Shown: positions 1,848 to 28,578 of the stretch, piece by piece | Layout of the letters: each line of letters starts with the position of its first letter | Numbering within the stretch: position 1 is the stretch's first letter | Assembly (NCBI GenBank): GCA_016188265.1 | Contig: JACPID010000005.1 | Coordinates: forward strand, 38,126 to 102,125 | Source: Candidatus Woesearchaeota archaeon | Lineage (GTDB): Archaea > Nanobdellota > Nanobdellia > Woesearchaeales > ARS49 | Direction: 5' to 3' | DNA length: 64,000 nucleotides | The notes under the pieces: generated by a model | Told to the model about the DNA's origin: nothing | Databases searched by the model: none | The model's input: only the letters and a program-made list of their open reading frames with translations | Program-made: the position numbers and the translations under genes

Positions 1848-3140
1848 ATGGCTTTTTTTGAAGAAAAAGGAAAAATAGCGCTTAAAATTCCAGGTGGACG
1901 TTATAAGCAGGTATATTTTGCTTTTGGTTCTGTTAAAGCGTATTTAGAAAATACGCCTATAAAGCTTCATGGTGGGAAGTGCACTGAAAAAAAGATTTTG
2001 CAACCTGCTACAGTATCAATTTATATTGGTTCAAGCGCAGGAGCAATAAATGCAACAGTTCATGCATGCGGTTATAGTTTACAAGAAATGGAAGATTGCT
2101 TTTTTGGAAAATATGATAATACTCCTTTAAAAATGCCTACAAAACAGGATTTAAAAAGAAGGCCTAATAATCGTTGGAATATTTTAAAGCACCCGATAAA
2201 TCATTTTTTAGGACAGTATACAACTCAAGGAATAAAAGAACATGTTGAGAAATGGATATTAAGAGATATAACTTATTTCAGTGATCTTGATCCTGAATTG
2301 TATATTTTTGCTGTTGAAGCAAATAGGTCTCGAACAGTTGTTTTTGGAAAACAAGAATCAAAACAAATTAATGATCACCAATATAGAAATCATGCGACAA
2401 TAAGCCAGGCAATAGCTGCATCAACAGCATTGCCTGGATTATATCTTAATTACCCTATTTTTGATCCGGCTAGTAACAAAATAAGATATTACGAGGATGG
2501 TGATATTCGTGATTTTTTTGACACAGATGTTGCGCAAAATGCAAAATGTGATCTTGTGCTAATACCTTGTATTTATCTTCCAACAGATGAAGAAACATTT
2601 AGAGAATGTACAGAGCCTGGATTAAAAACTTTATTGCGTGCTTATTCTCATGTACTGGATCATTCATTAGATACTAGGCTGAAGAAAGCAATGTATAATC
2701 GTGCTGAAAAAAAGAATACATTATTAAATTTTAGAAAGGATGCTAATGAATTATTAAATCCCTTTGCAGGTTTATTTGAAACAATTGAGTCAAGCATTAA
2801 ATTACAGATATTAAAGCGCGTAGAGGGAGAAGATAATGCTGAATTAAGAAAAAATCTTGAGCTTTATGTTATGCCAGTTGTTCATGATGCAATTAAAGAT
2901 GTGAAAAAACAGGTTCCTGTTTTAAAAGATGCAATTGATGCTCTTGAAGAAAGATTAATTAAAAATTTAAATTATTTTCCACAAAACGTGATTTATGTTC
3001 TTCCAAAAGAAGGGAGTGAAGAAGCAAAAATATTAAATAAAATTGCTCCTTTTACACAAGATAAAAAAGATGTGAAATTTTGCATTGATCTTGGATATAA
3101 TAGGACAATAGAAGTGTTGAAAGAAAGAAAACTATTATGA
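1848..3140 (+). CDS. patatin-like phospholipase domain protein
   Basis: GGxR/K-like oxyanion motif (KIPGGRYK) about 30 aa before a GxSxG serine motif (IGSSAGAIN); later YEDGDI resembles the DG[GA] aspartate motif. Confidence 0.4.
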   Translation: MAFFEEKGKIALKIPGGRYKQVYFAFGSVKAYLENTPIKLHGGKCTEKKILQPATVSIYIGSSAGAINATVHACGYSLQEMEDCFFGKYDNTPLKMPTKQDLKRRPNNRWNILKHPINHFLGQYTTQGIKEHVEKWILRDITYFSDLDPELYIFAVEANRSRTVVFGKQESKQINDHQYRNHATISQAIAASTALPGLYLNYPIFDPASNKIRYYEDGDIRDFFDTDVAQNAKCDLVLIPCIYLPTDEETFRECTEPGLKTLLRAYSHVLDHSLDTRLKKAMYNRAEKKNTLLNFRKDANELLNPFAGLFETIESSIKLQILKRVEGEDNAELRKNLELYVMPVVHDAIKDVKKQVPVLKDAIDALEERLIKNLNYFPQNVIYVLPKEGSEEAKILNKIAPFTQDKKDVKFCIDLGYNRTIEVLKERKLL

Positions 3141-3820
3141 TTTCAATAATTCTAGTTGAACCAGAACAAGAAGGCAATGTTGGCGCTATTGCACGGGTAA
3201 TGAAAAATTTGGGTTTTAGCAAACTTATTCTCGTAAATCCAAAATGCAATCACTTGTCTGAAGAAGCCCGTAAAAGAGCGAAAAATGCGCAAGATGTATT
3301 AAAAAAAGCAAAAATTTGTTCATGGGCCAAAATTAATTTTGATTTTCTTATTGGAACAACTGCAAAAATAGGAACTGATTTCAACATTCCACGCTCGCCG
3401 CTAACTCCTAATGACTTAAGAAATGCACTGCAGCACAAAGGAAGAAATGTCGGATTAATATTTGGCAGGGAAAGCCATGGTTTAAACAACAAAGAAATTG
3501 AGAAATGTGATTTTGTTGTGAAAATACCAGCAAACTCAAGATATGAAACACTGAATATCAGTCATGCTGTTGCTATTATTTTGTATGAATTGCAAAAAAA
3601 AAATAAAATTACAGAAATACGCCCCATAGGCAATAAAGAAAGAACTTATTTATTTAATATGATAAATCAAACTCTTAACAAACTTAAATTTAATTCTGAA
3701 ACAAAAAAACAAACACAAAAACTAGTTTGGAAAAGAATTCTTGCAAAATCATTTCTTTCACAAAGAGAAGCTTATGCGTTATTTGGTTATTTTAGAAAAC
3801 TATTAGAAAAGTTAAAATAA
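3137..3820 (+). CDS. SPOUT (SpoU/TrmJ-like) RNA 2'-O-methyltransferase
   Basis: N-terminal VEPEQEGNVGAIARVMKNLGF and LIFGRESHGL...ISHAVAIILYEL match SpoU/TrmH-class motifs; ATGA overlap with the upstream gene. Confidence 0.6.
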   Translation: MISIILVEPEQEGNVGAIARVMKNLGFSKLILVNPKCNHLSEEARKRAKNAQDVLKKAKICSWAKINFDFLIGTTAKIGTDFNIPRSPLTPNDLRNALQHKGRNVGLIFGRESHGLNNKEIEKCDFVVKIPANSRYETLNISHAVAIILYELQKKNKITEIRPIGNKERTYLFNMINQTLNKLKFNSETKKQTQKLVWKRILAKSFLSQREAYALFGYFRKLLEKLK

Positions 3821-3873: not shown

Positions 3874-3986
3874 CAATATAATTGAGGATAATAATATAAT
3901 TTACTTATGTCCTCAATTAATAATCAAAAATATTTATAAATACTTGATTAGATGATTACATTTATGGTTTTGACATGTTGTGAGAG

Positions 3987-5834
3987 GTGGCAAATGTTAT
4001 GGTAGCCGTAGGGCCATTAAATTTTGGCAACTTATTTGGCTTGTATGCGCTTCTTACTATTGTGCCTCTGATTTTATTGTATTTAATTCGTCCAAAGCCT
4101 AAAATGATGACTATTCCTTCTTTGATGTTTTTTCTTAAAATGAGCGGCGCTAACAGAATAACTTCTTTTTTTAAGCAATTAACAAGAGACTGGCTTTTGT
4201 TTATTCAGCTTTTAATCTTGCTTTTACTAGCTCTTGCATTTACTGAACCGTTTACATATTACACGCATGATGTTTCTTCAGCAAATACTATTATTGTTTT
4301 AGATGTTAGCGCCAGCATGCAGGCAAAAGAAGGTTCACTTACAAGATTTGAAAAAGCAAAAAGTTTTGCAAAAGAATTATTAGGAGCTTCAAATACAATT
4401 GTTCTTGCAAAATATTATAGTGAAGTCGGTGTGCAGGATGTTAGTAGAAGTGATGCTGTTAAATATCTTAACACATTACAGCCTTATGAATCTCCAACCA
4501 GGCTTGGAGACGCTATATTAACTGCAGGAGGAATTCTTGAAAAAAAAGGAACTAGTGAAGGAAGAATTATTGTTATTTCTGATTTTTTAAATACTGAAGG
4601 CCAAGACGCAACAACTACGCGCGCTGTGCTTCAATCAAAAAACATGCTTATTGATTTTATTAATGTAGCAGAGCAGGGTGAAAAAGAAAATGTTGGCTTT
4701 ATTGATCTTTTTATTGATAGAGATTCAACAACAGCGTACATCAAGAATTTTGCTGGTAAAGAAAAAACAATAACTTTAACAGTCGGTAATCTTACTAAAA
4801 ACATTAATATGGCTGCCAAGGCTGTTGAGCCGTTTTCTTTCCAGACAGTTGGCGGAGTAACAAAACTGCAAATAACTCCCTTTGATGAGTTTCCAGTTGA
4901 TAATGAGTTATTTGTTAGCGCTCCTAAAACTCTTAAAGTTCCTGTTCAGTTTATATCAAATGATAAATCAGAATTTTTGTACCAAGCATTAGAAGCATCG
5001 AGAATAGCTCAGGTTGATGTTGCAGAACCTCCGATTGTTCCAAAAGGGGGTTATCAGATATTTATATTAAATAATGTTGATCCTAGAGAAATTCTTACAG
5101 GAACAATGGAGGAGTTGTCAAGAGAAGTTGAAAATGGCGCAAGCATTATAATAACTGCTCAGAAAAACATGAATGAAATTGATTACTCGCCAATTCTCCC
5201 ACTAACTTCAAAAGGATTGGGAAAGGCAAAAGATCTTTTAATTCAGCAAATTAATAGGTTTACAAAAAATATTGAGTTTGGAAGTGTTAAAGAGTTTATT
5301 CAATTATCTGAAGAGCATGGATTAACACCCATCATAAGCGCTGATAGTGATGTTATAGTTGGGCTTGCGAAAAAAGGAAGTGGAAAAATATTATATTATG
5401 GAATTCTTGAATCAGCAAATGAATTTCATTTTAGCCCAGGCTACCCTATTTTTTGGACTGAGATTATTAAATTTCTTACAGAAAAACAAGATTTAGAAAG
5501 TTTAAATGACAGGACAAAAAACACAATATTTCCAGGAGTTAAAATGCCAGTGGATTCTCCGCGTGGAAGGCTTCCTCCTGCACCTGCAGTTTTTTTAGAA
5601 AATCAAGGCTTATACCATTTGGGTGATGTAACTATTGCAGTAAATCTTCTTAATGAACAAGAAAGTGAAGTTTCTGTATTAGAAAAAGGAGAATATGAAT
5701 TAACTCCTAAAAGTTATGAATTAATGCCTGTAGAAGAAAAGCGTAAATTTGAAATTGATATGATTTTAATTATTTTAGGAAGTTTAATTTTGTTTTTTGA
5801 ATTAGTGTATGTTAAGCAAAGGGGTGATTTTTAG
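3987..5834 (+). CDS. BatA-like membrane protein with vWA domain
   Basis: Two N-terminal TM helices, a vWA MIDAS motif (IIVLDVSASM), and a C-terminal TM. GTG start at 3987 or ATG at 3999. Confidence 0.6.
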   Translation: MANVMVAVGPLNFGNLFGLYALLTIVPLILLYLIRPKPKMMTIPSLMFFLKMSGANRITSFFKQLTRDWLLFIQLLILLLLALAFTEPFTYYTHDVSSANTIIVLDVSASMQAKEGSLTRFEKAKSFAKELLGASNTIVLAKYYSEVGVQDVSRSDAVKYLNTLQPYESPTRLGDAILTAGGILEKKGTSEGRIIVISDFLNTEGQDATTTRAVLQSKNMLIDFINVAEQGEKENVGFIDLFIDRDSTTAYIKNFAGKEKTITLTVGNLTKNINMAAKAVEPFSFQTVGGVTKLQITPFDEFPVDNELFVSAPKTLKVPVQFISNDKSEFLYQALEASRIAQVDVAEPPIVPKGGYQIFILNNVDPREILTGTMEELSREVENGASIIITAQKNMNEIDYSPILPLTSKGLGKAKDLLIQQINRFTKNIEFGSVKEFIQLSEEHGLTPIISADSDVIVGLAKKGSGKILYYGILESANEFHFSPGYPIFWTEIIKFLTEKQDLESLNDRTKNTIFPGVKMPVDSPRGRLPPAPAVFLENQGLYHLGDVTIAVNLLNEQESEVSVLEKGEYELTPKSYELMPVEEKRKFEIDMILIILGSLILFFELVYVKQRGDF

Positions 5835-8269
5835 TGGCCTTTCACCACACGATTCAATTATTTTATGTTAAAGTTAATAATGCATTAAGTGTGAAATATT
5901 CTTGGATTTTACTGCTAATAATTCCTTTATTCTTTTTTTTCAGATGGCTTGTAAAAAAGGATTTTGTTAAATTAAAAGAAGAAGAACATATTGTAAGAAG
6001 GCGTTTAGTTCTTCAAAATGTTATAATTGCAACAAGAACTGTGATGTTCTTTTTTATTCTTCTTGCGCTTGCTGCGTATTATGCTGAAAAGCCTGTAGAA
6101 GTTAAAGGTGATCTTTTCTTAAAGATTTTAGTAGATAATTCAACAAGTATGGGTGTTTTTAAGCCAGTGTCTGAAAACTTGTTCACTGAATTAAAAAAAA
6201 ATATTAATGTTGAAATTGCTGAGATCGGAAAACCAGAGGAAAGCAATATAGGTGATGCTTTATTAAACAATCTTGCTCCTCAAGAAAGCATTCTTTTGAT
6301 AAGCGATGGCAATGCAAACTCAGGAATTCAATTAGGAGATGTTGTTTTATTTGCAACCACACTAAACAGCACTGTTAATGCATTAAAACTTGAACCTGAT
6401 AAAACAGATGTTAGTGTTTCAATTGCTGGCCCTGAAAAAACAACAGAAGATGTTGAAAGCACATTTACAGTTGTGTTAGAAAAAACAGGCCTTATTGACA
6501 GAGTTCCTTTAAAAGTAAAAATAGATGACAAAGTAGTATTAGAAACAGTTACAAGTGATTTACGCATTCAAGTTACAACAAAGCTTTCAGAGGGATTTCA
6601 CAGAATTAGTGCAGAAATAACTTTAACTGATTATTTTGAGAAAAACAATAAATTTTACAAAACAGTTCAGGTAGTGCCTCCGCCAAGAATTTTGTTTTAC
6701 ACAAAAAAAACAAATTCACCGCTTATTGAACTTTTAAAACAAGTTGTTCAAGTTGATGTTGTAATGTCGCTTCCTGACAATGCAGCTGATCTTAAGAAAT
6801 TATTAAATAAATATTATACTATTATAATAAATGATATACCTGCTAAGCATCTTAACAAGCATGTTAATACTTTGTTTGAGTATTTAAGCGATGGAAATGG
6901 CATGATTGTTTTTGGCGGATATGAAAGCTATAGCGAAGGGCTATATAGAGGGTCATCTTTTGAACAATTATTAATGCCTGTTTTTGTAGGAAAAGCAGGA
7001 AGAAAAGAAAGCGATACAAATGTTGTTCTTTTAATTGATATTTCTGCAAGCACTGGAGCAGCAATTGTTGAAGGCGGTCAAAAAGCTGTTGATATTGAAA
7101 AGGCGCTTGCGTTAGGAGTCATGAAAACATTGCGCCCAAATGTTCTTGTTGCTGTTTTTGCATTTAATACTCGGGCTATTCCAATAACGCCATTAACACG
7201 CTTGTTAGAAAAAAAAGCTGAAGTAGAAGATATGATCAGCCGTTTAGTTGATGTTGGAGGAACTGCAATAAGCTCTGGGTTGTTTGCAGCTAATGCAGTG
7301 CTTGACTCAGCTTCTGGCAGTAAAAACATAATAATTATTTCAGATGGAAAAACTCATGATGGCGGTGCGTGGAAAGATGCTGCTAAAAGATCAGCTCAAA
7401 AAGGAATAAAAATTTATACTGTTGGAGTTGGAGAAAAAACAAATGAAGAGGTAATGCTTGAACTTGCAAGAATTGGCAGAGGCATTTATTTTAGAGCAAA
7501 CCAATTGTCTCGTTTAAAAATATTATTCGGAGAAGTTGAAGAAACAGGAGCTGAACACCCTTCTCTTTCTTTGCTTGATAGCAATCATTTTATTACTCAA
7601 GATCTTGAAGATATAAGCGCCACTATTTACGGCTATAATGATGTTGTTCAAAAAACCTCAGCACAGCTTCTTGCTACAAGCAGTTCTGGTGATCCGTTGT
7701 TAGCAGTGTGGCGTGTTGGTTTGGGAAGAATTGCTGCATTTGCAACTGATGATGGCACTGTGTGGTCTGGAGATTTGATGAGCAAGAAAAATTCAAAATT
7801 ATTAATAAGATCCGCCAATTGGGCAATAGGCGAGCCAGATAGAAAAAATGAAGAAGCAAGAACATACAAGGATAGTAGAATAGGTGTTCCAACAATTATT
7901 CAAGTAAAATCACTTAAGCAGCCTATTTCAGAAAAATATACTTTTTATAAAACTGAAGAAAATACATATCAAGCAGCAGTTACTCCTGTAGAAACAGGCT
8001 TTTTATCAATTCTTGATGGAATTATTGCAAGCAATTATCCAGAAGAATACCAGCATCTTGGCATGAATCCTGAACTAGAAGGAGTGGTTCTTTCAACAGG
8101 CGGGAATGTATTTGATCAAGATGATATAGAAAGTATTCTTGATCATGTAAAATCGCATTCTAAAAGAGTTGTTACACAAAAGGTTATTATTCGCTGGCCA
8201 TTTATATTAATTGCACTCATAATTTTCCTTATGGAAATATTTATAAGGAGATATTTAAGAAATGTATAG
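5834..8269 (+). CDS. BatB-like membrane protein with two vWA-like domains
   Basis: N-terminal TM; DxSxS motifs at LVDNSTSMG and VVLLIDISASTG, with downstream T and D residues (ISDGKTHDG); C-terminal TM. GTG start overlaps the upstream stop. Confidence 0.55.
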   Translation: MAFHHTIQLFYVKVNNALSVKYSWILLLIIPLFFFFRWLVKKDFVKLKEEEHIVRRRLVLQNVIIATRTVMFFFILLALAAYYAEKPVEVKGDLFLKILVDNSTSMGVFKPVSENLFTELKKNINVEIAEIGKPEESNIGDALLNNLAPQESILLISDGNANSGIQLGDVVLFATTLNSTVNALKLEPDKTDVSVSIAGPEKTTEDVESTFTVVLEKTGLIDRVPLKVKIDDKVVLETVTSDLRIQVTTKLSEGFHRISAEITLTDYFEKNNKFYKTVQVVPPPRILFYTKKTNSPLIELLKQVVQVDVVMSLPDNAADLKKLLNKYYTIIINDIPAKHLNKHVNTLFEYLSDGNGMIVFGGYESYSEGLYRGSSFEQLLMPVFVGKAGRKESDTNVVLLIDISASTGAAIVEGGQKAVDIEKALALGVMKTLRPNVLVAVFAFNTRAIPITPLTRLLEKKAEVEDMISRLVDVGGTAISSGLFAANAVLDSASGSKNIIIISDGKTHDGGAWKDAAKRSAQKGIKIYTVGVGEKTNEEVMLELARIGRGIYFRANQLSRLKILFGEVEETGAEHPSLSLLDSNHFITQDLEDISATIYGYNDVVQKTSAQLLATSSSGDPLLAVWRVGLGRIAAFATDDGTVWSGDLMSKKNSKLLIRSANWAIGEPDRKNEEARTYKDSRIGVPTIIQVKSLKQPISEKYTFYKTEENTYQAAVTPVETGFLSILDGIIASNYPEEYQHLGMNPELEGVVLSTGGNVFDQDDIESILDHVKSHSKRVVTQKVIIRWPFILIALIIFLMEIFIRRYLRNV

Positions 8270-8279
8270 TAAATAGAAG

Positions 8280-8789
8280 ATGGCATTTATTACGAAAAAC
8301 GCAAATTTGTTTTTATTATTTTTAATAGTATTAGCTTCTATTGGTTTAGTTGCAGCAACTATTTTTTTTCAGTATAAATTTCAGAATGTAAATCAGAAAC
8401 TGCTTCAAAAAGCAGTTGAATTACAAGATATTAGTAAAGAACTTGAGCAAAAACGCACATTGTTAGAAGGCATTCAACTTGATTTAAGTAAAAAAGAAAA
8501 AAGAGAAGAAGAATTATCAAGTAAGTATGTAGAAGTTGAAGAAGAAAAACAAAAAGTTCAAGAAAAAGCTCAAAGTTTAGAGCAAAAAACAGATATTTTA
8601 GAAGGAAAAGTCGGAGATCTTCAAATAGTTAATCAAAGATTAGAAGCAGTCAATCAAGACCAGGCAAAAGCAATACTTTCTCTAAATAATGATGTTGGCA
8701 TATTAAAAACTCAGAATTTACAATATCAGGCTCAAATTGCAAGATTAGCAAGTGACTTAGCAACTTGCCAAAGCCAGCAAGGAGCTTAA
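8280..8789 (+). CDS. membrane-anchored coiled-coil protein
   Basis: One N-terminal TM followed by about 130 aa of heptad-rich K/E/Q sequence. Confidence 0.4.
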   Translation: MAFITKNANLFLLFLIVLASIGLVAATIFFQYKFQNVNQKLLQKAVELQDISKELEQKRTLLEGIQLDLSKKEKREEELSSKYVEVEEEKQKVQEKAQSLEQKTDILEGKVGDLQIVNQRLEAVNQDQAKAILSLNNDVGILKTQNLQYQAQIARLASDLATCQSQQGA

Positions 8790-8791
8790 TA

Positions 8792-9568
8792 ATGAAAAAA
8801 ATTGAACAAGCGCTAAGGGAATTAAAAAGTACAGTAACTCTTATGGCTTTGTTTAGCAGTATAATTGATTCTTTTGTTGTTTTTCTTGCATCATTTCTTT
8901 TATGCATAATACTTCTTATTCCTTGGTTTTACTCATTTATTCCTCTTTTTCTTTATGGAATCATCCATATATATTCAGAACTTAAAACAGCAAGGTTTTT
9001 GTATATAGAGAAAAAATTGCCTTTTTTATATGAACAGCTTCGAACAGTTGCAGATAATATTCGCAAAGAACATGAAGTTATTGAAGCGCTTAATGAAGAA
9101 GTTCTTATTAAGTTGCGTGCAGTTAAAAATTCTGTATTCTTAAGATTTGGCAAAATTACTAACAGAATCACAACTCTTGTTATTCTTTCATTTCTTATAA
9201 TTATTCTTTCAGCAATGAATATTCAATTATTTGATGTTCCTAAAGCACTTAAAAATGTTCAAAAACAAATTGAGCAGCCTGAGCCAGAAGAACAATACCA
9301 GCAATTAATAACTGGCGGTGAAGATATTATTTTTGGAAATAAATCTGTTGCAGAATTAGGATATCAAGAATTAGAAATTAAGCTTAATCCAATTCAGAGT
9401 GAGATTGATATTGATAAAATTAAAGAACCTGAAAAACTTTCTTTTGAATCAAAATACAGGCCTAAAGAGATTATTGCAACTACAGATATTAGTTATGAAG
9501 AAAACATACCTAAAGATTATCAAAATATTGTTAGGGATTATTTTAGCGGAATAACAACTGCAAGATAA
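8792..9568 (+). CDS. membrane protein (probable ATG start at 8792 with GGAG RBS; the track start at 8765 is TTG)
   Basis: Multiple hydrophobic helices; part of the Bat-like operon. Confidence 0.4.
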   Translation: MKKIEQALRELKSTVTLMALFSSIIDSFVVFLASFLLCIILLIPWFYSFIPLFLYGIIHIYSELKTARFLYIEKKLPFLYEQLRTVADNIRKEHEVIEALNEEVLIKLRAVKNSVFLRFGKITNRITTLVILSFLIIILSAMNIQLFDVPKALKNVQKQIEQPEPEEQYQQLITGGEDIIFGNKSVAELGYQELEIKLNPIQSEIDIDKIKEPEKLSFESKYRPKEIIATTDISYEENIPKDYQNIVRDYFSGITTAR

Positions 9569-9653
9569 ATTGTGTTATAATAAGATTTTATGCCAAAAGA
9601 TATAAATAATACAGCAAATAAAAAGATATGTAAATCATGAAAAGGAGGGATGA

Positions 9654-12155
9654 ATGATGCGTGTTGAAGATGCAAAAAAAGCGTTGGATAAAGTATTTTC
9701 AGAGATGCAGAAAGTAATAGTAGGCCAGGAAGAGCTGCTTGGTGAAATGCTTATATCATTATTGTGCAACAGCCATGCGCTCTTGGAAGGTTATCCTGGA
9801 CTGGCTAAAACATTGGCAGTTAAAACATTATCAGAATTAATGGAATTAAAATTCACTCGTGTACAAAACACTCCTGATTTAATGCCTTCAGATATCACAG
9901 GAACTTATATTATTGAAGAAACAGGTTCAGGCAAAAGAAATTTTAAATTTCAGCCAGGGCCTGTTTTCACAAACATTCTCCTTGCAGACGAGATTAACAG
10001 AGCAACACCAAAAACTCAGTCTGCTTTATTAGAAGCAATGCAGGAAAGGCAAGTTACTGTTGGAAACATGACTTACAAGCTTGAACATCCTTTTTTTGTT
10101 TTAGCCACACAAAACCCTATTGAGCAAGAAGGAAGCTTGGCTTTGAGCGAGTCTGTATTTGTCAATGGGCAATTAAGAACTGGCAAGGAATTATTTGAAA
10201 TTGCTAAAGATAAGTGCATTGCAGAGGATGAAAAAGGAATAAAGTTATATGATTTAAATGCTTGGACTTTTGCATTGAACACATCTGGGAAATTAGAAAA
10301 ACAAAAATGTATGTTGTATACACTGCCTTATAAAGATGAACTGATAGCATTAACAACAAAGACAGGTAAACGATTGATTGTTACAAAAAACCACCTGTTC
10401 TTAATTAACGAAAATGGAATTATTTCTTGGAAGAAAGCTGAAGAGTTAACAAAAAAAGATTACCTTGTTAATCCAAAAAAACTCCCCCCTATAACTCCTT
10501 TAAATGTTATTTCACACGATGAAGCAATTTTGAGGATGAAAAATAAACAAGTTCCAAGTGAAATAACATTTGATGAAGATTTCGCGTTTTGGATTGCATT
10601 TTTGCTATCTGATGGGTACATCGGAGAAAAATGTGTGGAAGCTGTGCAAAAGAATTACCCGGAAGCTCTTGATAGATTTGTTGAAATATCAAAGAAGTAT
10701 GGATTTAACCCGAATGTGTTTACTAATAGAGGTTGCAGGTATGCTAGAATTTATTCAAAACCTCTTGTTGAGTATTTAAGCATTCGCTTCGGGGTAACTG
10801 GAGGAAAAGATAAAGAAATTCCTTCTTGGTTCTTGAGATTCTCTTCAGAAATGACTAAAGAATTCTTGAAAACATTTATTTCTTTAGAGTCTTCACTCAG
10901 AGATAATAGAATAGTTTTCACACAAAAAAGTGAGAAAAATACCAGCATAATATCGTACATGTTATTGCGTGAAGGAATTATTTCTTGGATAAAACACGAC
11001 GGAAGAGTTTTTAGGCTTAAGATTCAAGGTGAAGACTTCCTGAAGTTTATTAAACAATTTGGTTGGATATCTAATGACAAAATAAGGATGATTGATTTAA
11101 ACAGAGCGATTAAGTCAAGTTTTAGGGTTGTTCCAGTTGATAGAAAAGCAATTTTAAGATCAGTTGAACTTCTAGGGCTTAATAGCTTCCATACATTAAG
11201 CGGACATAAAAGTATTACTTCAAGAACTTGGTATGGAAGTTATAAAGGAATAAAAGAAGGAGAGACTGTGATGTCTGTTGATTCATTAAGAGATTTTGTT
11301 AATGATTTAAGAAATGAATTAAACAGCAGATACACTCTGGATTTCTCGAATTTATTGGAAAGTGATCCTAGAACATTTGCTGCAGGCATAGGAATGCCTA
11401 TGACTGAAATTTCACAACATCTTGAGATCTCAAAAAATCAAGTTTGGAGATTATACAGCGAAAACCATTCTTCAAGTGCAGTGCAAATCAAAACCTTCCT
11501 TAAAGAACAACAAACAATTTGCTTAGAAGAAGCTGAAAAACTCCTTCACTATTGTGAAGCATTGCTTAGCGAAGATGTATATTACGATGGGATTAAATCT
11601 ATTGAGTATGTTGAGCCGCAAGGAATGGCTTTTGGTTTAACTGTTCCGGGTTTACAAAACTATCTTGCAGGTTTTGGCGGATGTGGAATAAATCATAATA
11701 CATATCCTTTACCAGAAGCGCAGAGTGATCGTTTTCTGCTTAAAATAAAAGTTACTTATCCAAGCACTCAAGAGGAAATAGAAATTGTTAATCGAGTTGC
11801 TGAAGGAGCAGAAAATCCTGAACTAAAAACAGTTCTTAAGAAACAAGATTTGCTTGCAATGCAGAATTTAACAAAAAAAATTCCTTTGGCAAATGATATT
11901 AAAAAATATGCTGTTGATCTGGTTGTAGCAACTAGAGCGAAAAAAGATTTAATTGAATATGGAGCTTCACCAAGAGCATCTATTGGTCTTGTTTTAGCTG
12001 CAAAAGCGCGAGCTCTTCTTAATGGAAGAAAATATGTCAGCAAAGATGATATTAAAAATATGGCTTTTCCAATTTTAAGGCATAGAATTGTTCCAACTTT
12101 TGAAGCTGAACGCCAAGGACTTAGTGTAGAAGATATTATTAAAAATCTACTATGA
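9654..12155 (+). CDS. MoxR-family AAA+ ATPase interrupted by an intein (extein about 311 aa)
   Basis: Walker A GYPGLAKT and LLADEINRA (Walker B/sensor) in the N-extein; TYPLPEAQSDRF plus the conserved MoxR C-terminal region (VSKDDIKN...ILRHRI) in the C-extein; strong AGGAGG RBS. Confidence 0.8.
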   Translation: MMRVEDAKKALDKVFSEMQKVIVGQEELLGEMLISLLCNSHALLEGYPGLAKTLAVKTLSELMELKFTRVQNTPDLMPSDITGTYIIEETGSGKRNFKFQPGPVFTNILLADEINRATPKTQSALLEAMQERQVTVGNMTYKLEHPFFVLATQNPIEQEGSLALSESVFVNGQLRTGKELFEIAKDKCIAEDEKGIKLYDLNAWTFALNTSGKLEKQKCMLYTLPYKDELIALTTKTGKRLIVTKNHLFLINENGIISWKKAEELTKKDYLVNPKKLPPITPLNVISHDEAILRMKNKQVPSEITFDEDFAFWIAFLLSDGYIGEKCVEAVQKNYPEALDRFVEISKKYGFNPNVFTNRGCRYARIYSKPLVEYLSIRFGVTGGKDKEIPSWFLRFSSEMTKEFLKTFISLESSLRDNRIVFTQKSEKNTSIISYMLLREGIISWIKHDGRVFRLKIQGEDFLKFIKQFGWISNDKIRMIDLNRAIKSSFRVVPVDRKAILRSVELLGLNSFHTLSGHKSITSRTWYGSYKGIKEGETVMSVDSLRDFVNDLRNELNSRYTLDFSNLLESDPRTFAAGIGMPMTEISQHLEISKNQVWRLYSENHSSSAVQIKTFLKEQQTICLEEAEKLLHYCEALLSEDVYYDGIKSIEYVEPQGMAFGLTVPGLQNYLAGFGGCGINHNTYPLPEAQSDRFLLKIKVTYPSTQEEIEIVNRVAEGAENPELKTVLKKQDLLAMQNLTKKIPLANDIKKYAVDLVVATRAKKDLIEYGASPRASIGLVLAAKARALLNGRKYVSKDDIKNMAFPILRHRIVPTFEAERQGLSVEDIIKNLL
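10134..11699 (+). mobile_element. intein (522 aa) with LAGLIDADG homing-endonuclease domain inside MoxR
   Basis: The host sequence NPIEQEG|TYPLPEA is split by the insert. The insert begins with Ser (SLALSESVFVNG, block A), has TxxH (IVTKNHLFL, block B), a LAGLIDADG-like block (FWIAFLLSDGYIGEK), and ends GINHN followed by a +1 Thr. Boundaries are in frame (10134 and 11699). Confidence 0.75.
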
Positions 12156-13024
12156 TTGACATATCATTCCTTAAACAGCTTGATCGTTTGAGCTTGGTAA
12201 TCAACAAAAGAATAACTTCACAATATACTGGAGAACGCGCAACAAAATATACTGGCCAAGGCTTAATCTTTAAAGATTACACTATTTATGCTCCTGGTGA
12301 AGATTTTCGCGCAATTGACTGGAAAGTATTTGGAAGAACTGATAAACTATTTATTAAAAGATTTGAAGAAGAGAGAAATCTAACAATACACATAATAATT
12401 GATTTTAGCGCAAGTATGGATTTTAAAACTAGCAAGTTTAAAAAATCAGAATATGCAGCCATGCTTGCAATTGGATTTGCGTATATGGCTTTAAAGAATA
12501 ATGAAAGATTTGTTGTTTCTACTTTTGCAGAAGGTCTTGACATGTTCAGGCCTAGAAGAGGCAAAAGGCAATTAATGATTTTACTAGACCATTTGAATAA
12601 AAGAACAGCTCAGGGAATTACTAATTTTGAAAAATCAATTTCACAATATAAAGCATTAATTAATACAAAAAGCATGATTGTAGTGATTTCCGATTTTCTC
12701 TATGATGTAGAACAAGTTAAAAATACTTTAGCTAAATTTAAGAATCATAAAGTAAAGCTTATTCAAGTTCTTGACCCTATGGAAGTTGATTTGAATGTTG
12801 AAGGTGATTTTCGTTTAAGAGATCTTGAGACTAAAGAACAATTAAGAACATATATTTCTGGTTTTATGAGAAAAGAGTATGGGAAAAAATTAAGCCAGCA
12901 CCAGATTAATATCAATAATGCAGTAGATCAAATAGGCGCTGAATTTTATTCTTTTTCAACAGAAAAACCTATTTTTGATGCTTTTTATGAAGTCAGCCAG
13001 CACCAACACATGCATTTAGGTTAA
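12152..13024 (+). CDS. DUF58 protein (MoxR partner, vWA-like)
   Basis: FKDYTIYAPGEDFRAIDWKVFGRTDKLFIKRFEEE and IIDFSASMDF are DUF58 hallmarks; ATGA overlap with moxR. Confidence 0.7.
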   Translation: MIDISFLKQLDRLSLVINKRITSQYTGERATKYTGQGLIFKDYTIYAPGEDFRAIDWKVFGRTDKLFIKRFEEERNLTIHIIIDFSASMDFKTSKFKKSEYAAMLAIGFAYMALKNNERFVVSTFAEGLDMFRPRRGKRQLMILLDHLNKRTAQGITNFEKSISQYKALINTKSMIVVISDFLYDVEQVKNTLAKFKNHKVKLIQVLDPMEVDLNVEGDFRLRDLETKEQLRTYISGFMRKEYGKKLSQHQININNAVDQIGAEFYSFSTEKPIFDAFYEVSQHQHMHLG

Positions 13025-17306: not shown

Positions 17307-17981
17307 ATGAAAACAGTTATTGTTAGTGTTGGCGGTTCATTGATTGTTCCTAGAAGTATTGATGTTAGTTTTTTAAAAAAGTTAAGGTTATTAGTTTTAA
17401 GACATAAACAAATTCAGTTTTTGTTTGTTACAGGCGGTGGGAGTACAGCTCGTAATTATATAAATTCTGCATCAAAAGTTACAAAGCTGAAAACAGAAGA
17501 TAAAGATTGGCTTGGCATTCATGCAACAAGGCTTAATGCACATTTGTTTAAGACAATTTTTCATGATTTAGCTTATAATAGAGTTTTAAAAAACTATAAA
17601 GAGATTGTTAAAACAAATAAGAGAATAATTATAGCTTCTGGTTGGCGTCCTGGGCATAGCACTGATTATGATGCTGTTCAGTTTGCATTGTTGTACAAGA
17701 ATAGTGTGATTGTGAATTTAACTAATATAGACTATGTGTACAATAAAGATCCAAATAAGTATAGTGCTGCAAAACCATTAAAAGATTTGTTGTGGAAGGA
17801 TTACTTCAAACTCATGCCTAAAAATTGGGAGCCTGGAATGCATGTTCCTTTTGATATTCATGCTTCAAAACTTGCAGCTAAAAACAAACTTACTGTTATT
17901 CAGATAAATGGAAATAAATTAAATGAGTTTCAAAAATATTTAGAAAATAAGAAATTCATTGGTACGGTGATTCGTCCATGA
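17307..17981 (+). CDS. pyrH: UMP kinase (archaeal type)
   Basis: VSVGGSLIVP, FVTGGGSTARNYI, SGWRPGHSTDYDAV and TNIDYVYNKDP match the archaeal amino-acid-kinase/UMPK motifs. Confidence 0.75.
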   Translation: MKTVIVSVGGSLIVPRSIDVSFLKKLRLLVLRHKQIQFLFVTGGGSTARNYINSASKVTKLKTEDKDWLGIHATRLNAHLFKTIFHDLAYNRVLKNYKEIVKTNKRIIIASGWRPGHSTDYDAVQFALLYKNSVIVNLTNIDYVYNKDPNKYSAAKPLKDLLWKDYFKLMPKNWEPGMHVPFDIHASKLAAKNKLTVIQINGNKLNEFQKYLENKKFIGTVIRP

Positions 17982-19921
17982 AGAGAATTTTATTTTTTAT
18001 CATTTTATTTATTCCACTTTCATTTGCAGTTACTGAAATACAGGTTGATTTTTCCTCTGGCATTAGTTTAGAAAAAGAACAATATTTTTCAGAAATTAAT
18101 TCAGTTGTAGCTGATTTATTTCTTTTTCCAAGAGAAGAATTTGGTCAGGAAGTGCTTTCTTTGAAAACAGGCGGAAAACAGGGACTGGATGAAATAAATT
18201 ATAAGTGGGATGTTCCAAAACAAAATGTTCTGGCATACTCTTATACTTCAGTTGTGAGAACAAATCATGATTTAAGAAAAGTTTTTTCTAAAATTAATTA
18301 TCCTTATCCTAAACTTTCAGGTTCTATAGAATACTTTACTCAGCCTTCTGAACATATTGATTCGCAATATGAAACAATTAAAGATTTGGCTCAAAAAATC
18401 CGTGAACAAGAAACTGATTCTTGGAAAATTGTTAATAAAATTGGTTTATGGGTTAAAGGATCTGTAAAGTATAATCTTAGTACTTTAACTGAAGATGTAG
18501 TTCAACGTGCAAGTTGGGTTTTGCAGAATAAGTATGGTGTTTGTGATGAAATAACAACTCTATTTATCGCTCTTGTTCGTTCATTAGGCATTCCTGCAAG
18601 GTTTGTGCATGGTGTAGCGCAAACAGACGGTAATGGTTTATTTGGTTCTCATGGATGGGCTGAAGTGTATTTTCCAAATCATGGTTGGGTTCCTTTTGAT
18701 GTAACATTTGGACAGTTCGGATGGATTGATGAAACTCATGTAAGATTAATGCATACGCTTGACCCGGGAGATCCCGGGGTTAAAGTTGAATGGAGGGGAA
18801 AAAATGTTGAAGCTAAACTTGGAAAGCTTGCTTTAAATGCTAAATTCTTAAGACATGATAAAGAAGAACATGCTCTTTTGGATTATTCTATTTCTCCGCA
18901 ATTTTCTCTTGTAAAGCACGGAGGTTATAATTTAATTATTGTTAGTATTAAAAACCCCCAGTCATTTTATGTAACTGAATCTTTTACGCTTTCTTCAGTT
19001 AAAGAACTTGATATTTTAGGGCTTCAAGAACAGTGGGCTATTCTCGCCCCTGGAGAAGAAACTCGATTATTTTATATTATAAAAATAATTGACAATCTGC
19101 CTGAAAAATTCCAGTACACTGTCCCTATTGTTGTAACTTCAGGCAGAGATCAATTAAAAAAATCAATATTTAAAATAACTCCTTCAGGAGTTGCTGAAAA
19201 TTTAAGAAGTATTGAAAACACAATTATTTTATTGCGTCAAGAAAATTTAAAGCAGTATTCTTCACAAGTACTTCTTTTTTGTACACCAAAACAAGAACTT
19301 CTTTTTGAAAATGATGTTCCTGAAATAGAGTGTACTTTAGAAAATAAAGGAAATTTAATTTTAAATAATGTAGAAGTATGTGCAATAAATAAATGCAGTG
19401 AAATTGATATTTCACCAAAAAATAAGATAACTGTTATTTTAAAACTTAATTTACAGCATCCGGGCAGACAAGATGTGCTTGTAACTGCAAATAATGATCT
19501 TATTTCAAAAAATAGCATGGTTTCACTGGAAAAATATGATGATACTATTTTGGAAATTGAAGAAGTTTCTTTTCCTGAAAAAATAGTTAGTGAAACAAGT
19601 TTAAAATTAAAATTAGTTCAGAAATCATATTCATCGCCTGCAAAAGTGTCCTTGATTGTAAGAACCCCTAAAAGAAAGATAATTAGTGAAATTAAAGAAT
19701 TTTTATATGAACAAGAATTAGAAGTTTCAATCAAACCTGAGGATTTTGCTTATGGAAAAAATGATTTGAAAATAGAGCTTGATTATAAAACACTTTTAGG
19801 TGAAGATAAGAATGATTTAAAAATATTGTCAGTTGAACGTGGAGCAGGAGGTTTTTTAAAATCATTATTATTAAACATTCAAGAGTTTTTTACTAAAGTA
19901 TGGGAAGTTATTTGGCAATAA
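17978..19921 (+). CDS. secreted transglutaminase-like domain protein
   Basis: Signal peptide; Cys-His-Asp core YGVCDEITTLF...GSHGWAEVYFPNHGWVPFD. Confidence 0.65.
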   Translation: MKRILFFIILFIPLSFAVTEIQVDFSSGISLEKEQYFSEINSVVADLFLFPREEFGQEVLSLKTGGKQGLDEINYKWDVPKQNVLAYSYTSVVRTNHDLRKVFSKINYPYPKLSGSIEYFTQPSEHIDSQYETIKDLAQKIREQETDSWKIVNKIGLWVKGSVKYNLSTLTEDVVQRASWVLQNKYGVCDEITTLFIALVRSLGIPARFVHGVAQTDGNGLFGSHGWAEVYFPNHGWVPFDVTFGQFGWIDETHVRLMHTLDPGDPGVKVEWRGKNVEAKLGKLALNAKFLRHDKEEHALLDYSISPQFSLVKHGGYNLIIVSIKNPQSFYVTESFTLSSVKELDILGLQEQWAILAPGEETRLFYIIKIIDNLPEKFQYTVPIVVTSGRDQLKKSIFKITPSGVAENLRSIENTIILLRQENLKQYSSQVLLFCTPKQELLFENDVPEIECTLENKGNLILNNVEVCAINKCSEIDISPKNKITVILKLNLQHPGRQDVLVTANNDLISKNSMVSLEKYDDTILEIEEVSFPEKIVSETSLKLKLVQKSYSSPAKVSLIVRTPKRKIISEIKEFLYEQELEVSIKPEDFAYGKNDLKIELDYKTLLGEDKNDLKILSVERGAGGFLKSLLLNIQEFFTKVWEVIWQ

Positions 19922-28266: not shown

Positions 28267-28578
28267 ATGCCAAAAGCTAGAATAAAGCTTGCAAGTATAG
28301 ATATTGACAAGCTAAATCAGACTTGTGATTATATTAAAGATATTGCTGAGAAAACAGGTGTTGATATTAAAGGCCCTATTCCTTTGCCAACAAAAAAGCT
28401 CAAGGTAACAACTCGAAGATGTCCTTGTGGTGATGGCAAAGCTTCTTGGGAGCGTTTTGAAATGCGCGTTCATAAAAGACTAATTGATCTTGGTGTTGAT
28501 GAAAGAGCATTGCGTCAAGTTATGAAAGTTCCAATACCTCAAGGCCTTAACATTGAAATAGAAATGATTGATTCTTGA
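28267..28578 (+). CDS. rps10: ribosomal protein uS10
   Basis: ARIKLASIDIDKL...TRRCPCGDGKASWERFEMRVHKRLIDL; in the conserved tuf-rps10 arrangement. Confidence 0.85.
   Translation: MPKARIKLASIDIDKLNQTCDYIKDIAEKTGVDIKGPIPLPTKKLKVTTRRCPCGDGKASWERFEMRVHKRLIDLGVDERALRQVMKVPIPQGLNIEIEMIDS

What the first reader, a model, noticed from the sequence alone, without database searches (positions are those of the whole stretch)
3987..13024. Bat-like vWA/MoxR/DUF58 operon in a small archaeal genome
Two membrane vWA proteins (the second with two MIDAS-like motifs), a membrane coiled-coil protein, a polytopic membrane protein, MoxR and DUF58 form a single co-directional block with coupled start/stop overlaps. 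MoxR-vWA-DUF58 sets are known from the bacterial Bat aerotolerance operon. They have also been proposed as NTP-dependent chaperone-like or conflict systems. A complete, intein-bearing version in a reduced archaeal genome is notable, and one hypothesis is that it acts in cell-envelope or host-interaction assembly.
Basis: partly seen in the sequence, partly recalled or inferred. Interest (0 to 1): 0.5.

Follow-up and report, generated by a model that had tools for sequence, protein, structure and literature searches.

The report
Conserved archaeal MoxR–vWA envelope operon
This six-gene operon in a Woesearchaeota genome encodes two surface-exposed metal-binding membrane proteins, two small membrane proteins and a cytoplasmic ATPase with its adaptor; it is real, but it is an ordinary, already annotated copy of a cluster found in many DPANN archaea and in a haloarchaeon, and its function has never been tested.

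Summary
Positions 3987-13024 carry six co-directional, tightly coupled genes:
- g1: BatA_N + vWA + DUF7407 + DUF7408.
- g2: a double-vWA, GATase1-like paralog of g1.
- g3: a membrane-anchored coiled-coil protein.
- g4: a 3-TM DUF7502 protein.
- g5: MoxR, split by a 522-aa LAGLIDADG intein.
- g6: DUF58.

All four MIDAS motifs are conserved in orthologs. g1 and g2 are predicted to expose their large domains outside the cell.

The claim that this copy is notable does not hold.
- The same gene order occurs in 39 of 47 Woesearchaeota/Nanoarchaeia loci with enough sequence. In the loci lacking a BLAST-detectable g3, the slot holds a diverged ORF of the same kind in 7 of 8 checked.
- It also occurs in an Aenigmarchaeota-labelled MAG and in the free-living haloarchaeon Halorientalis salina.
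- The intein sits at one conserved MoxR site in all 15 intein-bearing proteins read, out of about 110 listed.
- GenBank already annotates the genes (MBI2564648-53), and Pfam has families for the parts.

It is Bat-like only in its core (MoxR, DUF58, BatA_N, BatB-like vWA). No TPR, BatD or SH3 component is present, and no defence signature was found.

Best reading: a cell-surface MIDAS/scaffold complex assembled or switched by the cytoplasmic MoxR-DUF58 pair. The function is inferred, not shown. Classification: new member of a known kind. Interest is low to moderate.

The parts
3934..3943 (+). TATA-like box (TTTATAAATA) in the 166-nt intergenic region upstream of g1. Candidate operon promoter; inferred only.
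   Evidence: Sequence read. An SD-like GAGGTGG at 3983-3989 precedes ATG 3999.
3987..5834 (+). g1: 3-TM membrane protein (probable start ATG 3999, 611 aa). Layout: BatA_N TM hairpin aa 12-88; vWA with MIDAS D106-x-S108-x-S110...D199; Ig-like beta-sandwich DUF7407 aa 236-309; GATase1/ThuA-like DUF7408 aa 322-491; second beta-sandwich; C-terminal TM aa 590-608.
4248..4676 (+). g1 vWA domain (aa 88-230), predicted to be extracytoplasmic.
   Evidence: topology.
5834..8269 (+). g2: 3-TM paralog of g1 (811 aa). Layout: TM hairpin aa 23-79; shortened vWA aa 82-185; beta-sandwich aa 192-281; GATase1-like domain split by an inserted canonical vWA; beta-sandwich aa 675-785; C-terminal TM aa 788-810.
6077..6388 (+). 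g2 N-terminal shortened vWA-like domain with the first MIDAS motif (D101-N-S103-T-S105; S157-D158-G159).
   Evidence: Conserved in 28 homologs. Aligned to g1's vWA. Not seen by Pfam in this protein, but bacterial homologs show two VWA hits.
7016..7528 (+). g2 canonical vWA domain (aa 395-565) with a full MIDAS: D402, S404, S406, T477, D504.
8280..8789 (+). g3: 169-aa protein with one N-terminal TM helix (aa 10-28) followed by a coiled coil. No family assignment.
   Evidence: The slot between g2 and g4 holds a TM + coiled-coil ORF in 56 BLAST-detected orthologs and in 7 of 8 loci where BLAST failed. Halorientalis has a 220-aa analogue.
8792..9568 (+). g4: DUF7502, 258 aa (mechanical ORF starts at TTG 8765). 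Predicted 3 TM helices. K/R-rich N-tail and a 63-aa helical TM2-TM3 region are predicted cytoplasmic. The acidic C-terminal domain is predicted outside, with conserved motifs IYGxKSIAELG and IPKxYQxIVKxYFxEI.
   Evidence: Pfam. 62-sequence alignment. Charge bias. GenBank start. Family size: 409 representatives at 50% identity.
9654..12155 (+). g5: MoxR AAA+ ATPase precursor, 833 aa. The spliced extein is 311 aa.
   Evidence: Pfam. The extein matches C. hutchinsonii MoxR 2r44 at E 8e-90 in one stretch. ATPase motifs are conserved in 55 orthologs.
10134..11699 (+). Intein (aa 161-682, 522 aa) with a LAGLIDADG homing-endonuclease domain, inserted between QNPIEQEG and TYPLPEAQSDRF. Splicing features: Ser1, TKNH block B, terminal HN, Thr+1.
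   Evidence: Same site in all 15 intein-bearing MoxR proteins read. Absent from the 54 MoxR genes of the GTDB-representative loci.
12152..13024 (+). g6: DUF58, 290 aa. Soluble vWA-fold protein with conserved MIDAS (D84-F-S-A-S88; S180-D181-F). No TM helix and no signal peptide.
   Evidence: PF01882 at 4.4e-42 and VWA_2 at 1.2e-6. No TM. Conservation in 53 orthologs.

Best explanation
This is one copy of a conserved archaeal six-gene envelope module.

Membrane part:
- g1 and g2 are paralogous three-pass membrane proteins.
- Each has a BatA-type N-terminal TM hairpin with a short, very basic loop on the cytoplasmic side, and a C-terminal TM anchor.
- Between them lies a large extracytoplasmic domain: vWA (MIDAS), Ig-like sandwich, non-catalytic GATase1/ThuA/GldG-like scaffold, and a second sandwich.
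- Together they display three metal-ion-dependent adhesion sites outside the cell.
- g3 (membrane-anchored coiled coil) and g4 (DUF7502) complete the membrane complex. g4 has a cytoplasmic helical segment and an acidic external domain.

Cytoplasmic part:
- MoxR must first excise its intein, because the intein splits the AAA+ core just before the arginine-finger segment.
- MoxR then works with DUF58, its soluble vWA/MIDAS adaptor, as an ATP-driven assembly or remodelling chaperone.
- This is by analogy with other MoxR-vWA pairs (RavA-ViaA, CbbQ-CbbO, NorQ-NorD; author's own knowledge).
- Its likely targets are the conserved cytoplasmic loops of g1 and g2 and the cytoplasmic segment of g4. Through these it would control assembly or the state of the surface complex.

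Status of each step:
- Shown here: gene content, domain identities, MIDAS conservation, g1/g2 paralogy, synteny, and intact intein splice motifs.
- Inferred: topology (positive-inside rule plus an experimental precedent), all protein-protein contacts, and the biological output (surface adhesion or envelope organisation).
For: Domains.

MIDAS conservation:
- g1: D106/S108/S110/D199 invariant.
- g2: both sites conserved.
- DUF58: D.S.SM and SDFLYd conserved at >=90%.

Paralogy and the inserted vWA: hhalign probability 98.4%; AF2 mean pLDDT 81 and 86.

Folds: BatB, GATase1-like STM3548/3rht, ThuA-like, GH42 middle domain and IFT52 N-domain. No invariant Cys or His in the GATase1-like part, so it is treated as non-catalytic.

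Topology:
- TM1-TM2 loop net charge is +7.0 (g1) and +4.1 (g2) across orthologs.
- N-tails are about -0.3 and -0.8. C-tails are positive.
- The same 3-TM layout with the vWA outside was mapped experimentally for the Borrelia BatA homolog BB0173 (PMC5700661).

The g1 cytoplasmic loop is the most conserved stretch of the protein, with 11 invariant positions in aa 35-68.

Synteny as a unit:
- 39 of 47 loci have all six genes in order.
- 5 more lack only a BLAST-detectable g3. Of the 8 loci checked for this, 7 hold a TM + coiled-coil ORF in the g3 slot.
- The same order occurs in Halorientalis and in L088, at only 27-35% identity for g1, g2 and g6. The linkage is therefore old and maintained.

A natural g1-like/g2-like fusion protein of 1382 aa exists.

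The extein is a bona fide MoxR (2r44, E 8e-90).
Against: - No experiment or co-fold prediction links MoxR/DUF58 to g1-g4.
- There is a topological gap. The ATPase and DUF58 are cytoplasmic, while nearly all the mass of g1-g4 is predicted to be outside.
- In 3 of 47 loci MoxR-DUF58 is not adjacent to g1-g4.
- The two bacterial g2-like proteins examined are stand-alone, without MoxR or DUF58 nearby. Such membrane proteins can therefore work without an adjacent ATPase.
- The topology of g3 rests on a weak charge bias.
- Phenotypes of the related bacterial Bat loci are inconsistent. There was none in Leptospira (PMC3557215), but stress and virulence effects in Riemerella (PMC11834572). The analogy therefore gives little functional guidance.
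Confidence: 0.5

Rival explanations
1. Secretion or membrane-remodelling machine. The six proteins would form a transport apparatus energised or gated by MoxR, as Makarova et al. proposed for the archaeal arCOG01314 (DUF4350)/MoxR/vWA neighbourhoods.
For: That proposal rests on the same logic: MoxR plus a vWA protein plus membrane-anchored proteins with flavodoxin/GldG-like ectodomains (PMC5898192). g1 and g2 carry a GATase1/GldG/IFT52-like fold. The complex would have ten predicted TM helices in total.
Against: No channel-forming or polytopic (>3 TM) component is present. No candidate cargo gene is conserved next to the block; the flanks differ between relatives. DUF4350 is not detected in g1 or g2. 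MoxR ATPases are known as chaperone or cofactor-insertion ATPases, not translocation motors (author's own knowledge).
Confidence: 0.15
2. Adhesin system for attachment of the DPANN cell to its host or to surfaces. The three external MIDAS sites would bind host S-layer or glycan ligands, and MoxR-DUF58 would tune adhesion.
For: External vWA/MIDAS domains with structural neighbours that are adhesins or receptors: Mfa5 pilus tip, CMG2/TEM8, TRAP and LapA vWA. The Borrelia paralog BB0172 binds an integrin (PMC5700661). The cassette occupies 9 kb of a small genome and is kept across Woesearchaeota.
Against: The same cassette is present in the free-living haloarchaeon Halorientalis salina. The function is therefore not specific to episymbiosis. 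The ectodomains are strongly conserved (invariant positions listed). No hypervariable ligand-binding region was noticed, but none was looked for.
Confidence: 0.15
3. Bat-type aerotolerance or oxidative-stress function, as first described for the Bacteroides fragilis BatI operon.
For: Shared core: MoxR, DUF58, BatA_N domain and BatB-like vWA fold. A batA mutant of Riemerella is more sensitive to oxidative stress (PMC11834572).
Against: The TPR/SH3 (BatC/BatE) and BatD components are absent from the block. Deletion of all bat genes in Leptospira gave no oxidative-stress phenotype (PMC3557215). No redox domain or conserved Cys is present in g1-g4.
Confidence: 0.08
4. NTP-dependent conflict or defence system of the MoxR-vWA type.
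For: A weak hit of MoxR to the bpMoxR model (8.6e-10). HicA toxin genes bracket MoxR-DUF58 in one relative.
Against: AAA_3 scores far higher (1e-57). PADLOC gives only two weak matches, a coiled-coil and an AAA one. No effector, VMAP, beta-propeller or nuclease gene is present. The cluster is conserved as one unit across deeply diverged lineages (27-35% identity for g1, g2 and g6) rather than patchy and variable.
Confidence: 0.03

Closest known systems
Orthologous six-gene cluster in Halorientalis salina (SOSC01000003.1; WP_136716819 vWA protein, WP_136716816 DUF7502 family protein) and in Woesearchaeota/Nanoarchaeia/Aenigmarchaeota MAGs
   Same: Identical order and domain content: BatA_N/DUF7406-7408 protein, double-vWA protein, TM + coiled-coil protein, DUF7502, MoxR, DUF58. 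In Halorientalis and L088 the MoxR also carries an intein at the same site.
   Different: Sequence identity to the haloarchaeal genes is only 27-35% for g1, g2 and g6. Some relatives have insertions (a HAD hydrolase in L088). Some have MoxR-DUF58 relocated (3 of 47). None of the 54 MoxR genes found in the GTDB-representative loci carries the intein.
Bacteroides aerotolerance (BatI) operon and its spirochaete homologs (Borrelia BB0170-BB0176, Leptospira bat)
   Same: MoxR of the classical (MRP) type next to DUF58. BatA_N double-TM domain. Two paralogous vWA membrane proteins with a 3-TM layout and the vWA outside (PMC5700661). BatB is among the closest solved vWA structures.
   Different: No TPR/SH3 (BatC/BatE) or BatD proteins. 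MoxR-DUF58 lie at the end rather than the front of the operon (compare PMC11834572). The archaeal vWA proteins are about twice as long, with Ig-like and GATase1-like domains. DUF7502 and the coiled-coil protein are additional. The host is an archaeon with no periplasm or outer membrane.
Predicted archaeal secretion/membrane-remodelling complex around arCOG01314 (DUF4350) with MoxR and a vWA protein (Makarova, Galperin, Koonin 2015, PMC5898192)
   Same: An archaeal MoxR plus DUF58-like vWA module linked to membrane-anchored proteins whose ectodomains have a flavodoxin/GldG/beta-galactosidase-middle-domain-like fold.
   Different: Different membrane components: no DUF4350, DUF4129 or S-layer-like Ig proteins here. 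That other system appears as a separate MoxR paralog locus in a haloarchaeon (L089).
MoxR-vWA chaperone pairs (RavA-ViaA, CbbQ-CbbO, NorQ-NorD)
   Different: Their clients are soluble or respiratory enzymes. Here the only linked candidates are membrane proteins with external domains. No client has been demonstrated.
Bacterial double-vWA + GATase1_like (PF07090) membrane proteins (Chloroflexota, Armatimonadota, Phycisphaerales)
   Same: Same architecture as g2 at about 25% identity. Pfam sees two VWA domains plus GATase1_like in them.
   Different: In the two loci examined they are stand-alone genes, not linked to MoxR, DUF58 or BatA_N proteins.

Membership tests
MoxR AAA+ ATPase, classical (MRP) type | AAA_3 core with Walker A/B, sensor-1 and Arg-finger segments, plus the AAA_lid_2 domain | tested here: met
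   AAA_3 1e-57 and AAA_lid_2 1.4e-20. The extein matches 2r44 at E 8e-90 in a single stretch. GYPGLAKT, LADEINR, ATQNP, EAQxDRF and GASPRA are conserved in 55 orthologs.
MoxR AAA+ ATPase, classical (MRP) type | Encoded next to DUF58 and vWA proteins | tested here: met
   g6 (DUF58) overlaps g5 by ATGA. g1 and g2 are vWA proteins in the same operon.
DUF58 (PF01882) | Profile match above the gathering score, with a vWA-like MIDAS | tested here: met
   144 bits against a cutoff of 23.4. DxSxS and SDF are conserved in 53 orthologs.
Bat aerotolerance operon (BatI) | BatA: N-terminal double-TM BatA_N domain followed by vWA | tested here: met
   PF07584 2.5e-12 and TIGR02226 1.8e-6 in g1.
Bat aerotolerance operon (BatI) | Second vWA membrane protein (BatB) | tested here: met
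Bat aerotolerance operon (BatI) | TPR/SH3 proteins BatC and BatE, and BatD | tested here: not met
   No TPR, SH3 or BatD family hit in any of the six proteins at E<=0.01. The g3 and g4 slots are a coiled coil and DUF7502.
Bat aerotolerance operon (BatI) | Contribution to aerotolerance or oxidative-stress survival | not testable with these tools
   Needs genetics. The literature on bacterial homologs is itself contradictory.
Archaeal DUF7406-7408 / DUF7502 six-gene cluster | g1 architecture: BatA_N + vWA + DUF7407 + DUF7408 | tested here: met
   All of the 120 best homologs have the same architecture.
Archaeal DUF7406-7408 / DUF7502 six-gene cluster | DUF7502 membrane protein between the vWA genes and MoxR | tested here: met
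   PF24334 1.8e-13. Same position in L084 and L088 and in 61 loci.
Archaeal DUF7406-7408 / DUF7502 six-gene cluster | Colinear order g1-g2-g3-g4-MoxR-DUF58 | tested here: met
   39 of 47 loci, plus 5 that lack only a BLAST-detectable g3. Also Halorientalis.
MoxR-vWA ternary conflict systems (bpMoxR / VMAP / beta-propeller or effector) | bpMoxR-type ATPase with a VMAP-vWA protein and an effector or beta-propeller gene | tested here: not met
   The bpMoxR hit is only 8.6e-10 against AAA_3 at 1e-57. No such partner genes are present. PADLOC is negative.
arCOG01314 predicted secretion complex | DUF4350 (PF14258) membrane-anchored protein | tested here: not met
   No PF14258 hit in g1-g4. Only the fold class (GATase1/GldG-like) is shared.
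Class 1 intein with LAGLIDADG homing endonuclease | Nucleophile at residue 1, TxxH block B, C-terminal (H)N, and a nucleophile at +1 | tested here: met
   Ser161 (SLALSE), TKNH, GINHN, then Thr683. Intein_splicing 1.6e-17, intein_Nterm 1.7e-6 and LAGLIDADG_3 4.2e-7.
Class 1 intein with LAGLIDADG homing endonuclease | Actual protein splicing and endonuclease activity | not testable with these tools
   Needs an expression and splicing assay.

The most novel reading that the evidence does not exclude
The cassette could be a prokaryotic 'inside-out' adhesion switch. Cytoplasmic MoxR-DUF58 would use ATP to pull on or rearrange the conserved basic BatA_N loops and the DUF7502 cytoplasmic segment. 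That would change, across the membrane, the affinity state of the three external MIDAS sites. This would be functionally analogous to integrin activation, and would be used by DPANN cells to attach to and release hosts or surfaces. A further layer could be control of MoxR activity by conditional intein splicing.
Probability: 0.08. Interest if true: 0.7.

Novelty: new member of a known kind. Interest (0 to 1): 0.28.

Why it matters
As a finding in this window it matters little. The genes are already deposited and named, every part except the coiled-coil protein has a Pfam family, and the arrangement is the rule in the clade.

The module as a whole is more interesting:
- It is about 9 kb, a sizeable investment for a small DPANN genome. 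(Genome size was not measured here; only a 109.8-kb contig is on record.)
- It has been kept intact across lineages that share only 27-35% identity in g1, g2 and g6.
- It has never been studied experimentally.

Because a cultivated haloarchaeon carries the same cluster, a haloarchaeal model could be used to learn what this module does for uncultivated DPANN archaea. That work could also address an old open question about Bat-like loci: how a cytoplasmic MoxR ATPase relates to vWA domains that lie outside the membrane.

Tried and rejected
1. Conflict/defence reading. The PADLOC scan gave only a coiled-coil match and a weak AAA match. Rejected.
2. Uniqueness of the intein. Most of the 120 best hits to g5 are intein-bearing MoxR proteins, and all 15 read carry the intein at the same site. 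These include a mini-intein and a paralogous haloarchaeal MoxR. Rejected as a novelty.
3. Link to the nearby transglutaminase gene (17978-19921). Only 1 of 80 related loci (L004) has a TGase homolog in its flanks. Not part of the module.
4. Conserved flanks. Homologs of the window's upstream and downstream genes were not found in the relatives' flanks at E<1e-5. The block moves as a unit.
5. Pfam at E<=10 on the g2 N-terminal domain, the g4 C-terminal domain and g3. No extra family was found.
6. PDB sequence search with DUF58. No solved relative.
7. Sigma-70 promoter and terminator scan. Not above the shuffled expectation, and not relevant to an archaeon.
8. Bacterial g2-like proteins as a bridge to Bat operons. 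The two loci examined are not linked to MoxR or DUF58.
9. Foldseek against afdb50, intended for taxonomic breadth. The library was not available.
10. Literature:
  - No paper mentions DUF7502, DUF7407 or DUF7408.
  - No paper was found that describes this cluster in Woesearchaeota, DPANN or Haloferax.
  - The only MoxR + intein papers concern phages.
  - A 'DUF58' hit in a 2026 preprint turned out to be DUF5819.


Full report
**1. What is there**

Positions 3987-13024 hold six + strand ORFs with no significant ORF-free gaps.

Gene junctions read from the DNA:
- g1's TAG stop shares its G with g2's GTG start (TAGTG, 5832-5836).
- g3 starts 10 nt after g2.
- g4's ATG (8792) lies 2 nt after g3's stop, behind a GGAG.
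- g5 follows g4 after 85 nt, behind a GGAGG.
- g5 and g6 overlap as ATGA.

A TATA-like TTTATAAATA (3934-3943) sits in the 166-nt upstream spacer. The next gene downstream is on the opposite strand.

All six proteins are 100% identical to GenBank entries MBI2564648.1-MBI2564653.1 from a Candidatus Woesearchaeota MAG contig of 109,812 nt. Their names there are BatA domain-containing protein, VWA domain-containing protein, hypothetical, hypothetical, AAA family ATPase and DUF58 domain-containing protein. GenBank's starts suggest g1 begins at ATG 3999 and g4 at ATG 8792.

**2. Domains**

| Gene | Pfam result |
|---|---|
| g1 | BatA_N 2.5e-12, VWA_2 5.3e-10, DUF7407 2.4e-10, DUF7408 1.9e-37 |
| g2 | VWA 8.5e-17, GATase1_like 1.8e-7 |
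| g3 | nothing above cutoff (one TM helix plus coiled coil) |
| g4 | DUF7502 1.8e-13 |
| g5 | AAA_3 1e-57, AAA_lid_2 1.4e-20, Intein_splicing 1.6e-17, LAGLIDADG_3 4.2e-7 |
| g6 | DUF58 4.4e-42 |

NCBIfam adds the TIGR02226 'N-terminal double-transmembrane domain' for g1 and intein_Nterm for g5.

AlphaFold2 models built with alignments of database homologs are confident: g1 mean pLDDT 81, g2 mean pLDDT 86.
- g1 reads as: TM hairpin, vWA, beta-sandwich, Rossmann-like domain, beta-sandwich, TM.
- g2 has the same plan, but with a shortened first vWA and a canonical vWA (aa 395-565) inserted into the Rossmann-like domain.

A profile-profile comparison shows g1 and g2 are paralogs: probability 98.4%, E 1e-14, g1 63-412 aligned to g2 57-389, with the MIDAS motifs in register.

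**3. The MIDAS claim**

- g1's D106-x-S108-x-S110 and D199 are invariant in 23 homologs.
- In g2, both D101/S103/S105/D158 and D402/S404/S406/T477/D504 are invariant or at least 90% conserved in 28 homologs.
- DUF58 keeps DxSxS and SDF in 53 orthologs.

One caveat: Pfam does not recognise g2's first domain as vWA even at E<=10. Its identity rests on homology to g1, on the model, and on bacterial homologs in which Pfam does report two VWA domains.

**4. Topology**

g1 and g2 each have three hydrophobic helices, two at the N-terminus and one at the C-terminus.

Charge bias across orthologs:
- TM1-TM2 loop net charge: +7.0 (g1) and +4.1 (g2).
- N-tails: -0.3 and -0.8.
- C-tails: positive.

By the positive-inside rule the loop and the C-terminus are cytoplasmic and the large domains lie outside. 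The Borrelia BatA homolog BB0173 has the same three-helix layout, and its vWA domain was mapped experimentally to the periplasmic side (PMC5700661).

g4 is predicted N-in, with a cytoplasmic 63-residue helical segment and an acidic external C-domain (net -10.6). g3's orientation is only weakly indicated (N-in, coiled coil out). MoxR and DUF58 have no hydrophobic helix.

The g1 loop is the most conserved stretch of that protein, with 11 invariant residues in aa 35-68. This suits a docking site for a cytoplasmic partner.

**5. Synteny and spread**

A scan of one genome per GTDB species found 104 loci encoding a g1 relative, and 80 were kept. Of the 47 with at least 7.2 kb downstream of g1:
- 39 have g1-g2-g3-g4-MoxR-DUF58 colinear on one strand.
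- 5 lack only a BLAST-detectable g3.
- 3 have g1-g4 with MoxR-DUF58 elsewhere.

In 7 of the 8 loci checked where BLAST found no g3, the g2-g4 gap holds a 142-199-aa ORF with an N-terminal TM helix and a charged tail, often with the KxNVNLFLL...YYQ motif.

The flanking genes of the window are not conserved in the relatives, so the block behaves as a unit.

The free-living haloarchaeon Halorientalis salina has exactly the same order. Identity is only 27% (g1), 31% (g2), 35% (DUF58) and 49-63% (MoxR extein). An Aenigmarchaeota-labelled MAG has it too, with a HAD hydrolase gene inserted.

g4 alone recovers 409 representatives at 50% identity among 1.84 billion proteins. In the best 150 listed, almost all are about 260 aa with full-length matches.

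A 1382-aa protein that joins a g1-like half to a g2-like half exists. This is a Rosetta-stone hint that g1 and g2 work together.

**6. The intein**

Residues 161-682 of g5 (nt 10134-11699) interrupt QNPIEQEG | TYPLPEAQSDRF. This is the most conserved stretch of MoxR and lies just before the arginine-finger segment.

Ser1, the TKNH block B, the terminal HN and Thr+1 are all present. Removing the insert gives a 311-aa protein that matches the Cytophaga MoxR structure 2r44 in one stretch at E 8e-90.

The intein is not special to this genome:
- Most of the 120 best hits to g5 in the 5.8-billion-protein collection carry intein domains.
- All 15 sequences read have the intein at the same site.
- These include a mini-intein without endonuclease (P0225), the Halorientalis ortholog, and a paralogous haloarchaeal MoxR that sits in a different DUF58/DUF4129 locus.
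- None of the 54 MoxR genes in the GTDB-representative loci has it.

This sporadic pattern is what a mobile homing intein gives.

**7. Comparison with known systems**

The core (classical MoxR, DUF58, a BatA_N protein and a second vWA membrane protein) is that of the bacterial Bat loci. The differences are:
- No TPR/SH3 proteins or BatD.
- MoxR-DUF58 come last rather than first (compare PMC11834572).
- The vWA proteins carry Ig-like and GATase1-like domains.
- DUF7502 and a coiled-coil protein are added.

Makarova et al. (PMC5898192) predicted a secretion or membrane-remodelling complex for a different archaeal MoxR/vWA neighbourhood, built around DUF4350. The idea is related and the fold class of the ectodomain is shared, but the components differ.

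No paper found mentions DUF7502, DUF7407 or DUF7408 or describes this cluster.

Defence signatures are absent.

Experimental evidence on Bat loci is inconsistent: no phenotype in Leptospira, but stress and virulence effects in Riemerella.

**8. Verdict**

The best-supported mechanism is a surface MIDAS/scaffold complex (g1-g4) that is assembled or switched by cytoplasmic MoxR-DUF58 once the intein has spliced out. The parts list is solid. The coupling and the biological output are inferred.

This is a new member of a known, annotated but experimentally unstudied kind. Interest for this window is low to moderate. The module itself would be worth studying in a haloarchaeal model.

Noticed in passing
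window 17307-19921: A Transglut_core protein (647 aa, 17978-19921) is translationally coupled to an amino-acid-kinase-family gene (17307-17981), about 5 kb downstream of the operon. In the closest GTDB relative (L004) a TGase homolog sits directly upstream of g1. Only 1 of 80 loci shows this, so a link to the MoxR/DUF58 module is unlikely.
   Followed up: partly
window 1848-3820 and 28575-29837: A patatin-like phospholipase (1848-3140, coupled to a SpoU methyltransferase gene) and a protein with a neutral/alkaline ceramidase N-terminal domain (28575-29837). These are lipid hydrolases of bacterial or eukaryotic type in a DPANN archaeon.
   Followed up: no
window 35028-42511: A co-directional block: a 1318-aa protein with a Big_7 Ig domain, a 423-aa protein with no family, a ParA/MinD-like ATPase (40245-41003), and a 503-aa protein with no family. 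It may be another surface-structure locus.
   Followed up: no
window 59424-61319: An aCPSF1/FttA-type KH + beta-CASP ribonuclease (transcription termination factor), an ordinary archaeal housekeeping gene.
   Followed up: no
L084 2345-4273 (Halorientalis salina): Directly upstream of the haloarchaeal six-gene cluster lies a 642-aa repeat-rich, Thr/Pro-linker secreted protein with a PGF-CTERM-like tail. It could be a surface glycoprotein partner of the module in haloarchaea.
   Followed up: no
L085 170-4624 and L031: In MAG JACQMZ01 the cluster is split over two contigs (g1-g3 on one, intein-MoxR + DUF58 on the other). There, MoxR-DUF58 is bracketed by two HicA-toxin gene pairs.
   Followed up: no
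P0225, P0166, L089 (relatives of g5): Variants of the MoxR intein allele: a mini-intein lacking the endonuclease (505-aa precursor); one with KN instead of HN at the C-terminal junction; and the same insertion site used in a paralogous haloarchaeal MoxR linked to DUF58/DUF7269/DUF4129 genes.
   Followed up: partly
P0334 (ENA metagenome protein, 1382 aa): A natural fusion of a g1-like half (BatA_N, vWA, DUF7408) and a g2-like half (residues 786-1373 match g2 253-807, E 6e-31).
   Followed up: partly
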